NCBI GenBank assembly: GCA_032128375.1 | Contig: JAQBGU010000107.1 | Location: 7,879-71,878 of the forward strand | From: Deltaproteobacteria bacterium | GTDB lineage: Bacteria > Myxococcota_A > UBA9160 > SMWR01 | Length of the DNA: 64,000 nucleotides | Direction: 5' to 3' | In this document: piece after piece, positions 54,286 to 54,753 of the stretch | Position numbering within the stretch: the stretch's first letter is position 1 | How the letters are laid out: each line of letters opens with the position of its first letter | Translations under genes and position numbers: made by a program | The notes under the pieces: model-generated | What the model was told of the DNA's origin: nothing | Databases searched by the model: none | The model's input: the letters and a program-made list of their open reading frames with translations, nothing else

Positions 54286-54315
54286 TTGACAACTCTGGTG
54301 ACTCGGGACTATAAG
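54286..54315 (+). promoter_or_regulatory. Near-consensus sigma70-type promoter (TTGACA, 18-nt spacer, TATAAG)
   Basis: TTGACA at 54286-54291 and TATAAG at 54310-54315, in an otherwise GC-rich intergenic region 40 nt after the ccmC stop. Confidence 0.5.
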
Positions 54316-54319
54316 CTGA

Positions 54320-54753
54320 AGGCAACGAACCTGCGTCTCGCACGTTCGATAATTTCTACAGTGGAGGCAACCGCTTACCCACCCCCCATGGGGGAAGCGT
54401 GTGCGTTCGGGAGAGCAAATCTCCCGACTGCGACAAATGTTGCGCGCCATTTGACTGGACCGGCAGGAGAGGGAAGCGCAGTACCCATTCCGGGACCGCA
54501 GCCCCTCTTGATCGCTCCACTCGAGAAGATTCGCACACACGCGAAAGACCGGCAGAAGTCGCTCTAGGGGCGGTTGTCGCGTGTGAAATCATCGTCCGGC
54601 AAACGCCGTGGCACGGAGATTGCGAAGTCTTCCGAATGGGCCCATGACTTCGGGCCGAGAACTCTACGTGATCCCGGTGCGGTGTGCGGTCTGCAGTGAG
54701 CGGTGAACGTTCAAGGGGGCCCGGGAGGCGACCCAACAAAGGGGACAGCGAAT
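54320..54753 (+). ncRNA. Candidate structured RNA or long 5' leader (unclassified)
   Basis: About 430 nt with no convincing ORF. Multiple hairpins and a long-range helix are readable by eye (coordinates in findings). Boundaries and function are not established. Confidence 0.3.

What the first reader, a model, noticed from the sequence alone, without database searches (positions are those of the whole stretch)
54286..54753. Consensus-like promoter followed by a roughly 430-nt hairpin-rich non-coding region: candidate novel structured RNA or riboswitch-like leader
Seen in sequence: TTGACA (54286-91), an 18-nt spacer and TATAAG (54310-15) stand out in GC-rich DNA, 40 nt after ccmC. No credible ORF lies between there and ATG 54754.

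The region contains these potential structures:
- a long-range helix AGTGGAG (54360-66) / CTCCACT (54515-21);
- enclosed within it, hairpin GGGAGA-gcaaa-TCTCCC (54409-25);
- enclosed within it, hairpin GCGAC-aaat-GTTGC (54430-43);
- enclosed within it, the CCCCCATGGGGG palindrome (54383-94);
- enclosed within it, an AGAGGG...CCCTCT helix (about 54467-54509);
- a second domain with a perfect 8-bp helix CACACGCG (54536-43) / CGCGTGTG (54578-85), extended by GATT/AATC;
- a third hairpin GGCCC-atgacttc-GGGCC (54639-56);
- finally the AAAGGGGA ribosome-binding site.

I could not match it to RNase P, tmRNA, SRP, 6S or any riboswitch core I know. It is the largest unexplained non-coding stretch in the window.
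Basis: partly seen in the sequence, partly recalled or inferred. Interest (0 to 1): 0.7.

Follow-up and report, generated by a model that had tools for sequence, protein, structure and literature searches.

The report
Conserved structured RNA leader, two promoters
The 500-base gap before a small, extremely conserved zinc-ribbon gene of uncultured Myxococcota encodes a conserved, multi-helix RNA that matches no Rfam 15 family, has its own promoter, and has a second (sigma-54) promoter embedded near its 3' end.

Summary
The observation largely holds. TTGACA-N18-TATAAG (54286-54315) is real, unique in the window and conserved in about 45 related species. Downstream lies a roughly 250-nt RNA core (54361-54608) that matches no Rfam family.

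Comparison of 80 genome loci and 53 metagenome loci shows compensatory base changes in these helices:
- a long irregular hairpin E;
- hairpin H5;
- hairpin P6, just past the core.

G·U pairs outnumber A·C pairs, which puts the RNA on the + strand. No reading frame is conserved.

The 5' arm of P6 lies upstream of the predicted sigma-54 start. P6 can therefore form only in transcripts coming from the upstream promoter.

The RNA always sits at a fixed distance upstream of the zinc-ribbon gene. That protein is 94-99% identical across species, while neighbouring CcmC is only 48-85% identical.

Best reading: a new structured 5' leader, with a short-leader isoform made from the sigma-54 promoter. Its ligand or partner is unknown. 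No transcript data were available.

The parts
54286..54315 (+). Sigma-70-family-type promoter: -35 TTGACA, 18-nt spacer, -10 TATAAG. Predicted start is near 54322.
   Evidence: Unique in the window, 0.00 expected by chance. TTGACA(A)-N17/18-(G)TATAAG is conserved about 413-545 nt upstream of the ATG in about 45 of 79 genome loci. In the metagenome RNA loci with enough upstream sequence it lies 86-143 nt upstream of the RNA pattern used for the search. The last base of the -10 hexamer is a conserved G rather than T, so the tool's sigma-70 rule does not call it.
54322..54360 (+). Variable 5' segment ending in a U-rich tract.
   Evidence: Poorly conserved in sequence and length; a TTTC tract precedes block A in most loci. 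Its structure was not tested.
54363..54372 (+). Block A: GGAGGCAACC, an invariant Shine-Dalgarno-like box with no start codon after it.
   Evidence: GGAG.C is invariant in 30 sequences. It resembles the GGAGGCGAYC box at 54724-54733. No pairing partner was found.
54372..54399 (+). SL1: CGCUU 54372-76 pairs with AAGCG 54395-99.
   Evidence: Helices 1 and 2 of model R1 are 87% and 92% paired, with double changes in 4 of 9 pairs.
54397..54407 (+). P2, 5' strand (GCGUGUG.GUU) of a candidate long-range helix closing a four-way junction. Its first 3 nt compete with SL1.
   Evidence: Predicted by RNAalifold. It is 87.7% paired in 30 sequences, but covariation is not above the shuffled control because both strands are nearly invariant. 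Plausible only.
54407..54427 (+). H2 hairpin: UCGGGAGA / UCUCCCGA, loop GCAAA.
   Evidence: The stem sequence differs between species: CUCGGGGU/GCCCCGGG, UUGGGGCC/GGCCCCAG, GCAGG/CCUGC. Two loci carry a tip insertion of about 45 nt, and four loci lack the hairpin. Double changes occur in 4 of 5 pairs.
54429..54446 (+). H3 hairpin: UGCG-A-CAA / UUG-CGCG.
Evidence: Double changes in 5 of 8 pairs.
54451..54524 (+). E: a long irregular hairpin. Its 5' strand carries the conserved CGGCAG and GGAAGCGCAGUACCC.
   Evidence: In 8 sequences aligned by MAFFT, the two E helices (12 and 9 pairs) are 84% and 90% paired. The whole E+H5 structure is 88.6% paired against 48% or less in slid controls. In the 21-sequence model-fitted alignment, 16 of 21 pairs show double changes. 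The window's own register differs by 1-3 nt in the basal stem.
54532..54542 (+). P2, 3' strand (block F, CGC.CACACGC).
   Evidence: Same as for the P2 5' strand.
54550..54579 (+). H5: a two-part hairpin, GGCAG / UUGUC outside and an inner stem around loop CUCUAGG.
   Evidence: All 9 pairs show double changes in 21 sequences, with 81-89% paired. Per-sequence folds agree.
54609..54623 (+). Sigma-54 promoter TGGCACGGAGATTGC (-24 GG, -12 GC). Predicted start is near 54635.
   Evidence: The only exact TGGCAC-N5-TTGC in 64 kb, with 0.14 expected by chance. The GG and TTGC positions are invariant across 42 and 69 aligned sequences. The motif occurs in 76 of 79 loci, 79-271 nt before the ATG.
54624..54651 (+). 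P6 hairpin: GAAGUC 54624-29 / GACUUC 54646-51. The loop contains GGGCCC 54638-43.
   Evidence: In 69 sequences aligned by MAFFT, 77.6% of cells are paired. There are 96 double-change cells against 35±6 in shuffles (0/500), and the covariation score is 0.419 against 0.248 or less in slid controls. The 5' arm occupies -11 to about -1 of the sigma-54 promoter.
54639..54656 (+). It is mutually exclusive with P6.
   Evidence: 63.5% paired; covariation score 0.154 against 0.111±0.014 (2/500). Weak support.
54717..54734 (+). GGGCCC followed by the box GGGAGGCGACCC, 20-37 nt upstream of the ATG.
   Evidence: This is the most conserved part of the short 5' UTR. The GGGCCC here stays complementary to the P6 loop hexamer through paired changes: GGACCC/GGGUCC, GAGCCC/GGGCUC, GCGCCC/GGGCGC, AGGCCU/AGGCCU. 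It is 88.4% paired, with 7 double-change cells against 2.8±1.5 (8/500). Suggestive only.
54738..54756 (+). Shine-Dalgarno AAAGGGGA and the start codon ATG at 54754.
   Evidence: AGGGAUGGCCAGCAUG is nearly invariant in homologues.
54754..55242 (+). Zinc-ribbon protein gene (162 aa), the gene always linked to the RNA.
   Evidence: 94-99% identical in 80 species. There is only sub-threshold similarity to the eS31/S27a zinc ribbon. The AlphaFold2 model has pLDDT 84 and no PDB fold match.

Best explanation
The ccmC / zinc-ribbon intergenic region encodes a conserved, structured RNA on the + strand. Its proposed layout and working are as follows.

1. **Transcription start.** The RNA is made from a sigma-70-family-type promoter (54286-54315).
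2. **Folded core.** The first roughly 290 nt fold into a multi-helix domain: SL1, then probably a four-way junction of P2 with H2, H3 and E, then H5. Several unpaired blocks in this domain are invariant.
3. **Read-through.** Transcription most likely continues across an embedded sigma-54 promoter (54609-54623), through hairpin P6, and into the zinc-ribbon gene. The domain would then be a roughly 430-nt cis-acting leader.
4. **Short isoform.** The sigma-54 promoter makes a second mRNA with a short leader of about 120 nt. This isoform lacks the whole domain and the 5' arm of P6, so it must fold differently: P6', or pairing of the 5' GGGCCC with the GGGCCC next to the GGAGGC box.
5. **Function (inferred).** The long leader binds a factor and sets how much protein is made from the constitutive promoter. 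The factor could be a protein, possibly the zinc-ribbon protein itself, or a small ligand. Sigma-54 activation bypasses this control.

**Shown here:** the conserved promoters, the RNA helices, the strand, the cis linkage, and the position of P6 relative to the sigma-54 promoter.

**Inferred:** read-through, the regulatory role, and the identity of the partner.
For: **Conservation and linkage**
- A sequence profile gives exactly one hit per locus, always on the + strand and 109-233 nt before the ATG, in 39 of 81 sources.
- Covariance model R1 finds the RNA in 38 of 81 sources. It also confirms 53 of the 56 metagenome loci that were fetched using only an RNA sequence pattern.
- Every one of those RNA loci with enough 3' sequence carries the gene, with its ATG 325-437 nt downstream of the RNA pattern used for the search.
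- The RNA stays with the gene in the 9 loci where ccmC is not upstream.
- A diverged version with the same block order is present in the distant group.

**Structure**
- Covariation exceeds both controls for SL1/H2/H3, E/H5 and P6.
- Tip insertions and deletions are confined to hairpins.

**Strand and coding**
- G·U pairs are 2-6 times more frequent than A·C pairs in the tested helices.
- There is no conserved reading frame.

**Read-through**
- The P6 5' arm begins at the base right after the -12 TTGC, so it lies upstream of the expected sigma-54 start.
- No terminator-like site lies between the two promoters.

**Promoters**
Against: - No transcript data were available. Neither start site nor read-through was observed, and contig ends were uninformative.
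- The -10 hexamer ends in a conserved G, which is atypical for sigma-70.
- P2, which defines the four-way junction, has no covariation support.
- No ligand, terminator or anti-Shine-Dalgarno element was demonstrated. A candidate pairing of block B (CCAUCCC, in the SL1 internal loop) with the Shine-Dalgarno region shows uncompensated changes.
- An RNA that ends or is processed before the gene would fit most of the data equally well.
- Distant homologues of the protein have no such leader, so nothing ties the RNA to the protein's biochemistry.
Confidence: 0.5

Rival explanations
1. An independent small RNA of about 290-330 nt, made from the upstream promoter and ended or processed around H5/P6. 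It would act as a stable RNA, for example as a binding partner, decoy or antagonist of the zinc-ribbon protein or of another factor. The gene itself would be transcribed only from the sigma-54 promoter.
For: - The RNA has its own strongly conserved promoter.
- The core length is constant at about 245-250 nt.
- The gene has a separate, complete promoter.
- Block A resembles the GGAGGC box of the mRNA leader, as a decoy would.
- P6 could mark the 3' end.
Against: - There is no U-tract or terminator-like site after H5 or P6.
- The P6 loop of 11-16 nt is large for a terminator.
- Strict cis linkage at fixed spacing is not needed for a trans-acting RNA.
- The P6 loop appears to pair with the region just before the GGAGGC box, about 75 nt further downstream. 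This implies that one molecule spans both.
Confidence: 0.3
2. The conserved blocks and palindromes are DNA elements rather than RNA. They would be upstream activator sequences for the enhancer-binding protein of the sigma-54 promoter, plus repressor sites overlapping it.
For: - The region lies 60-250 bp upstream of a sigma-54 promoter, where activator sites are expected. This rests on established knowledge of sigma-54 promoters.
- GGAAGCGCAGTACC (GGAAGCGCGGTTCC in most relatives) is an invariant imperfect palindrome about 130 bp upstream of -24.
- GGGCCC is palindromic.
- P2 and several blocks are invariant with no covariation.
Against: - Compensatory changes keep pairing while the sequence changes in six helices.
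- G·U pairs greatly outnumber A·C pairs.
- Hairpin tips tolerate insertions or deletions of 45-70 nt.
- A conserved promoter sits upstream on the same strand.
- A dual role for single blocks is not excluded.
Confidence: 0.07
3. A small protein is encoded here, for example the 93-aa ORF at 54286-54567 or a short ORF after the GGAGG of block A.
For: - Mechanical ORFs exist.
- Block A looks like a strong ribosome-binding site.
Against: - No Pfam match.
- Only 4 of 30 homologues lack a stop in that frame.
- The phase between conserved blocks varies (10/14/5).
- Indels are not multiples of three.
- No start codon lies within 15 nt after block A.
Confidence: 0.02

Closest known systems
Autoregulatory leaders of ribosomal-protein and other RNA-binding-protein genes (for example the Rfam L20, S15 and L10 leaders)
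   Same: It is a structured, conserved 5' leader placed directly upstream of a small, extremely conserved gene. The product of that gene has a nucleic-acid-binding-type zinc ribbon. It is strictly cis-linked at fixed spacing.
   Different: - No Rfam leader model matches.
- It is much larger: about 290 nt of core plus 120 nt.
- It carries an internal sigma-54 promoter.
- The protein is not a known ribosomal protein, showing only sub-threshold eS31 zinc-ribbon similarity.
- Binding of the protein to the RNA is untested.
Riboswitches with multi-helix junction aptamers (cobalamin, T-box, glycine, lysine classes)
   Same: It has a promoter-proximal multi-helix junction with invariant unpaired nucleotides and variable hairpin tips. 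It sits upstream of a single gene.
   Different: - No Rfam match.
- No terminator/antiterminator or Shine-Dalgarno-sequestering platform was found.
- The downstream gene is not metabolic or a transporter.
- A complete promoter separates the 'aptamer' from the gene.
Large orphan structured RNAs with a linked protein gene (OLE with OapA, raiA, HEARO/omega RNAs, ROOL, GOLLD)
   Same: It is a long RNA of complex fold, lineage-restricted, found by comparative analysis and tied to one protein family. Its function is unknown.
   Different: - It matches none of these Rfam models.
- It lies upstream on the coding strand and is probably co-transcribed with the gene.
- It is restricted to one clade of uncultured Myxococcota.
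6S RNA / Ms1 (promoter-driven RNAs of 180-300 nt that bind RNA polymerase)
   Same: It is similar in size and is driven by its own strong-looking promoter.
   Different: - No Rfam 6S hit.
- The fold is a branched junction, not a long rod with a central bubble.
- Strict cis linkage to one gene is not a 6S feature.
Genes with tandem sigma-70 and sigma-54 promoters that give alternative 5' UTR isoforms (for example E. coli glnA P1/P2)
   Same: An upstream sigma-70-type promoter and a downstream sigma-54 promoter both face the same gene.
   Different: - Here about 290 nt of covarying RNA structure fills the space between the two promoters.
- One covarying hairpin (P6) straddles the sigma-54 start, so the two isoforms must fold differently.

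Membership tests
Any Rfam 15 family (4227 models, including RNase P, tmRNA, SRP, 6S, riboswitches, r-protein leaders, OLE, raiA, HEARO, ROOL, Pxr) | Covariance-model score at or above the family's gathering threshold | tested here: not met
   There are 0 matches in the whole window at gathering score. In 54100-54900 at E<=10 the only match is RT-13, at 16.8 bits against a gathering score of 69.1 (E=2.6), and it covers just hairpin H2.
Evolutionarily conserved structured RNA (generic) | Homologous sequences in many species with conserved order of blocks | tested here: met
   Found in 39 of 81 sources by sequence profile and 38 of 81 by covariance model. A further 53 metagenome loci carry it. 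A diverged form is present in the distant group.
Evolutionarily conserved structured RNA (generic) | Compensatory base-pair changes above shuffled and slid controls | tested here: met
   - A5: 51 double-change cells against 21.5±3.8, 0/500.
- A6: 9 pairs against 4.1±1.4, 0/500.
- A7: 25 of 30 pairs.
- A8, helix P6: 96 cells against 35±6, 0/500.
- Caveats: A5 and A7 are fitted to the model, and R-scape was not available.
Evolutionarily conserved structured RNA (generic) | Strand asymmetry (G·U tolerated, A·C not) and absence of coding signal | tested here: met
   G·U against A·C counts are 79/28, 71/21, 103/49 and 31/5. Stops occur in all frames and the phase is not conserved.
Evolutionarily conserved structured RNA (generic) | Evidence that the RNA is transcribed | not testable with these tools
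   No expression data were available, and contig ends were uninformative.
Sigma-54 (RpoN) dependent promoter | TGGCAC-N5-TTGC with GG at -24 and GC at -12 | tested here: met
   TGGCACGGAGATTGC lies at 54609-54623. It is the only exact match in 64 kb, with 0.14 expected by chance.
Sigma-54 (RpoN) dependent promoter | Conservation of the -24/-12 elements at orthologous loci | tested here: met
   Present in 76 of 79 loci. GG and TTGC are invariant in alignments of 42 and 69 sequences.
Sigma-54 (RpoN) dependent promoter | rpoN and a cognate enhancer-binding protein with an upstream binding site | not tested
   Whole genomes were not examined. A candidate site (GGAA-N6-TTCC, about 130 bp upstream) is only a guess.
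Sigma-70-type promoter | -35 TTGACA and -10 TATAAT-like hexamers 17±1 bp apart, with T at the last -10 position | tested here: inconclusive
   The -35 is perfect, the spacer is 18 nt, and the -10 is TATAAG. Conservation argues for function, but the sigma factor is uncertain.
Riboswitch | Aptamer coupled to an expression platform (terminator/antiterminator or Shine-Dalgarno sequestration) | tested here: not met
   No terminator-like site lies between 54316 and 54753. No supported pairing with the Shine-Dalgarno sequence was found. P6/P6' are alternative hairpins, but they are linked to promoter choice rather than shown to respond to a ligand.
Riboswitch | Specific binding of a small ligand | not testable with these tools
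   This requires in-line or SHAPE probing.
Ribosomal-protein-type autoregulatory leader | The downstream protein binds its own leader | not testable with these tools
   The only indirect hint is that a GGAGGC box is present both in the RNA 5' end and near the Shine-Dalgarno sequence.

The most novel reading that the evidence does not exclude
The RNA and the ultra-conserved zinc-ribbon protein form a dedicated RNA-protein module. The roughly 290-nt junction RNA would be the protein's binding platform or sensor. The split hairpin P6 would make the cell produce two leader isoforms that fold differently: a controlled long form from the upstream promoter and an uncontrolled short form from sigma-54. 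This would be a regulatory design not described for any known leader.
Probability: 0.2. Interest if true: 0.8.

Novelty: new member of a known kind. Interest (0 to 1): 0.62.

Why it matters
- It adds a well-supported structured RNA family of about 300-430 nt that matches nothing in Rfam 15. At least six helices covary. It comes from a widespread but uncultured clade of marine, sediment and soil Myxococcota.
- It flags the linked 162-aa zinc-ribbon protein as one of the most conserved proteins of that clade. The protein is 94-99% identical where CcmC is 48-85% identical, and it has no known fold or function.
- A covarying hairpin is cut by an internal sigma-54 start site. This gives a concrete, testable case of promoter choice dictating mRNA leader structure.

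Tried and rejected
- **Whole-region alignment.** RNAalifold on the full MAFFT alignment of 42 upstream regions gave nothing because the alignment was too gappy. The region had to be split at conserved anchor blocks.
Helices 54360-66/54515-21 and 54536-43/54578-85 are not conserved. Complementarity between block A and the segment before block F equals shuffled expectation.
- **Hairpin before the -24 element.** A hairpin just before the -24 element, in a fixed register, is 42% paired, the same as the controls.
- **Long-range P2.** It is well paired but shows no covariation, so it is kept only as plausible.
- **Block B as anti-Shine-Dalgarno.** Block B (CCAUCCC, in the SL1 internal loop) against GGGAUGG shows uncompensated U-to-C changes in several loci. 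This was not pursued.
- **Small ORF and opposite-strand RNA.** Both are rejected.
- **Model R2.** Built from 8 close sequences, it was too specific: 20 true hits and one spurious hit at window 15024-15127 with E=0.73.
- **Transcript ends from short contigs.** The contigs extend past the promoter, so they are uninformative.
- **Protein function.**
  - Pfam, NCBIfam, PADLOC and PDB sequence searches gave only sub-threshold zinc-ribbon hits.
  - The AlphaFold2 model (pLDDT 84) has no PDB fold match; the best E-value is 0.14.
- **Literature.** Searches found nothing on this RNA or protein.
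Full report
**What is in the window**

- The gap between ccmC (53527-54246, Pfam Cytochrom_C_asm) and a 162-aa zinc-ribbon gene (54754-55242) is 507 nt long.
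This pattern occurs once in the 64-kb window, with 0.00 expected by chance.
- Rfam 15 gives no match at gathering score anywhere in the window. In the permissive scan the only hit is a chance-level RT-13 match, E=2.6.
- The + strand folds better than shuffled sequences (z=-2.64). The - strand does not (z=-1.09).

**Related loci**

- The zinc-ribbon protein recovered 80 species-representative genomes, all MAGs and mostly labelled Myxococcota or Deltaproteobacteria, at 94-99% protein identity.
- The upstream CcmC is only 48-85% identical in the same loci.
- The upstream DNA is far more diverged than the gene, but it keeps conserved islands.
- A motif scan over 79 upstream regions showed two things:
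  - A consensus sigma-54 promoter, TGGCAC-N5-TTGC, lies 79-271 nt before the ATG in 76 of 79 loci.
- In the window the sigma-54 motif is TGGCACGGAGATTGC at 54609-54623. It is the only exact match in 64 kb, with 0.14 expected by chance.

**The RNA core**

- Between the two promoters lies a core of very constant length, about 245-250 nt (window 54361-54608).
- It is built of nearly invariant blocks separated by hairpins of variable sequence and length.
- A sequence profile of the core hits once per locus, always on the + strand and always just upstream of the gene, in 39 of 81 sources.
- Per-segment folding shows hairpins whose stems differ in sequence but stay complementary. H2 is an example: UCGGGAGA/UCUCCCGA, CUCGGGGU/GCCCCGGG, UUGGGGCC/GGCCCCAG and GCAGG/CCUGC. 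Two loci have a tip insertion of about 45 nt in H2, and four loci lack it.

**Covariation tests**

| Element | Alignment | Paired | Slid controls | Double changes |
|---|---|---|---|---|
| SL1, H2, H3 | A5: 39 sequences, fitted to model R1 | 82.8% | 34-61% | 51 cells vs 21.5±3.8 (0/500) |
| E, H5 | A6: 8 sequences, MAFFT only | 88.6% | 48% or less | 9 of 30 pairs (0/500) |
| E, H5 | A7: 21 sequences, fitted to model R2 | 82.1% | 48% or less | 25 of 30 pairs |
| P6 | A8: 69 sequences, MAFFT only | 77.6% | 61% or less | 96 cells vs 35±6 (0/500) |
| P2 | A2: 30 sequences, MAFFT only | 87.7% | up to 67% | not above shuffles |

- Model R1 covers SL1, H2 and H3. It was searched over 81 sources.
- P2 (GCGUGUG.GUU with CGC.CACACGC) would close a four-way junction around H2, H3 and E. 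Both strands are almost invariant, so the lack of covariation leaves it plausible only.
- G·U pairs outnumber A·C pairs 2- to 6-fold in the tested helices, so the RNA is read from the + strand.
- Stops occur in all three frames, and the phase between blocks is not conserved. The region is therefore not coding.

- The three small hairpins are real and conserved: CCCC/GGGG, GGGAGA/TCTCCC and GCGAC/GTTGC.
- The AGAGGG/CCCTCT area belongs to hairpin E, but the exact register proposed is only 44% paired.
- AGTGGAG/CTCCACT is 33% paired. CACACGCG/CGCGTGTG is 43% paired. Neither is conserved.
- Block A has no better-than-chance partner in that area.

**Linkage to the gene**

- A metagenome scan used only an RNA pattern, CCCAYCCCC-N3-7-GGGGAAGCGTGYG. 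It returned 56 loci.
- Model R1 confirmed 53 of them. The other three lack both promoters and the gene.
- Every confirmed locus with enough 3' sequence carries the zinc-ribbon gene, with its ATG 325-437 nt downstream of the pattern. Those with enough flanking sequence also carry both promoter motifs.
- The RNA remains with the gene in the 9 loci where ccmC is not the upstream neighbour.
- The most distant group has longer gaps (650-890 nt), its own TTGACAAC-N17-ACTACAAA promoter, and a diverged RNA with the same block order.

**Around and after the sigma-54 promoter**

- A hairpin, P6, starts at the base right after the -12 TTGC. In the window it is GAAGUC 54624-29 with GACUUC 54646-51; elsewhere an example is GAGGUUCUCC/GGAGAACCUC. 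Its covariation figures are in the table above.
- By the established geometry of sigma-54 promoters, with GC at -12, the 5' arm of P6 lies at -11 to about -1.
  - P6 can therefore exist only in RNA that starts further upstream.
  - This is the main argument that the upstream transcript runs through the sigma-54 promoter.
- No terminator-like site lies between the promoters.
- The P6 loop carries GGGCCC (54638-43). The same hexamer recurs at 54717-22, directly before a conserved box GGGAGGCGACCC.
  - The two hexamers change together so as to stay complementary: GGACCC/GGGUCC, GAGCCC/GGGCUC, GCGCCC/GGGCGC and AGGCCU/AGGCCU.
  - They are 88.4% paired, with 7 double-change cells against 2.8±1.5 (8/500). 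This is suggestive only.
- A hairpin just before the -24 element in a fixed register is not supported.

**The protein**

- It shows only sub-threshold similarity to the eS31/S27a zinc ribbon. Nothing was found in NCBIfam or PADLOC.
- An AlphaFold2 model (pLDDT 84) has no PDB fold match.
- The wider family has 313 clusters at 50% identity.
- Two distant members (51% and 39% identical) sit in tight operons of the form DUF932 / small ORF / zinc-ribbon / AAA_5 ATPase / DUF2201. These operons have no long leader.
- The RNA plus sigma-54 arrangement is therefore specific to the stand-alone Myxococcota gene.

**Interpretation**

- *Shown:* two conserved promoter motifs on the coding strand; a conserved + strand RNA with at least six covarying helices; strict cis linkage to one gene; and a covarying hairpin that straddles the predicted sigma-54 start.
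- *Inferred, about 0.5:* the upstream promoter makes a roughly 430-nt structured leader that controls expression in cis by binding an unknown factor. The sigma-54 promoter makes a short-leader mRNA that escapes this control.
- *Main rival, about 0.3:* the RNA is a separate stable RNA.
- *Minor rival, about 0.07:* a purely DNA-level enhancer. The covariation and the G·U bias contradict this as the sole explanation. A dual role remains possible for single invariant blocks, such as GGAA-N6-TTCC about 130 bp upstream of -24.
- No transcript evidence could be obtained, and the literature searches found nothing on this RNA.

**Verdict**

The finding is real and not ordinary. It is a new structured RNA family, of the known kind 'structured leader / non-coding RNA', with an unusual embedded promoter. 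Its function remains open.

Noticed in passing
window 54754-55242; loci L001-L080: The 162-aa zinc-ribbon protein is 94-99% identical across 80 species-level genomes. The neighbouring CcmC is only 48-85% identical in the same loci. This conservation is extreme for a protein with no known family, fold or function.
   Followed up: partly
L137 3001-3471; L138 2141-2611; L139 1324-1803: Distant homologues of the zinc-ribbon protein (51% and 39% identical) lie in a tight operon: DUF932, a small ORF, the zinc-ribbon gene, an AAA_5/MoxR-like ATPase, and DUF2201. This looks like a mobile-element or conflict-system context. There is no long upstream leader.
   Followed up: partly
window 54363-54372 and 54724-54733: Two copies of a Shine-Dalgarno-like box, GGAGGCRAYC, are present. 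One is at the 5' end of the RNA core. The other is 20-30 nt upstream of the start codon. Neither is followed by a start codon at a usable distance. The box differs by one base from GGAGGUGAUCC, the full complement of the 16S 3' end.
   Followed up: partly
window 54745-54756 versus homologues (A11 columns 189-205): Most homologues have ATGGCCAGCATG, an in-frame ATG 9 nt upstream of the start, and many gene calls use it (165 aa). The window has ACAGCGAATATG instead. The conserved AGGGAUGGCCAGC is therefore probably untranslated leader rather than coding sequence.
   Followed up: partly
window 55243-55333: The 3' UTR of the zinc-ribbon gene is C/A-rich and repeats AGCCCCACA (…ACAAACAGCCCCACAACAAATAGCCCCACACAAACAAAAC…). 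A terminator-like hairpin follows at 55296-55323.
   Followed up: no
L016 about 2900-2975: A tandem repeat (GCGAGTGCGGC, about 7 copies) is inserted in the short 5' UTR of one homologous locus, between the sigma-54 promoter and the GGAGGC box.
   Followed up: no
L010, L031, L048-L050, L061, L063, L066 (about 115-157 nt before the ATG): In the distant group a conserved TTGACAGTCGAGGGTCGACCGTCGCAGGAT lies between the sigma-54 promoter and the gene. It contains the palindrome GTCGAGGGTCGAC. It could be a third promoter or an operator.
   Followed up: no
window 54310-54315 and homologues: The -10 hexamer of the upstream promoter ends in a conserved G (TATAAG), or in A in the distant group (TACAAA). 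Sigma-70 promoters almost always have T at this position. The responsible sigma factor may not be the housekeeping one.
   Followed up: no
window 15024-15127: Covariance model R2 gives a weak match here (13.9 bits, E=0.73). It is probably spurious.
   Followed up: no
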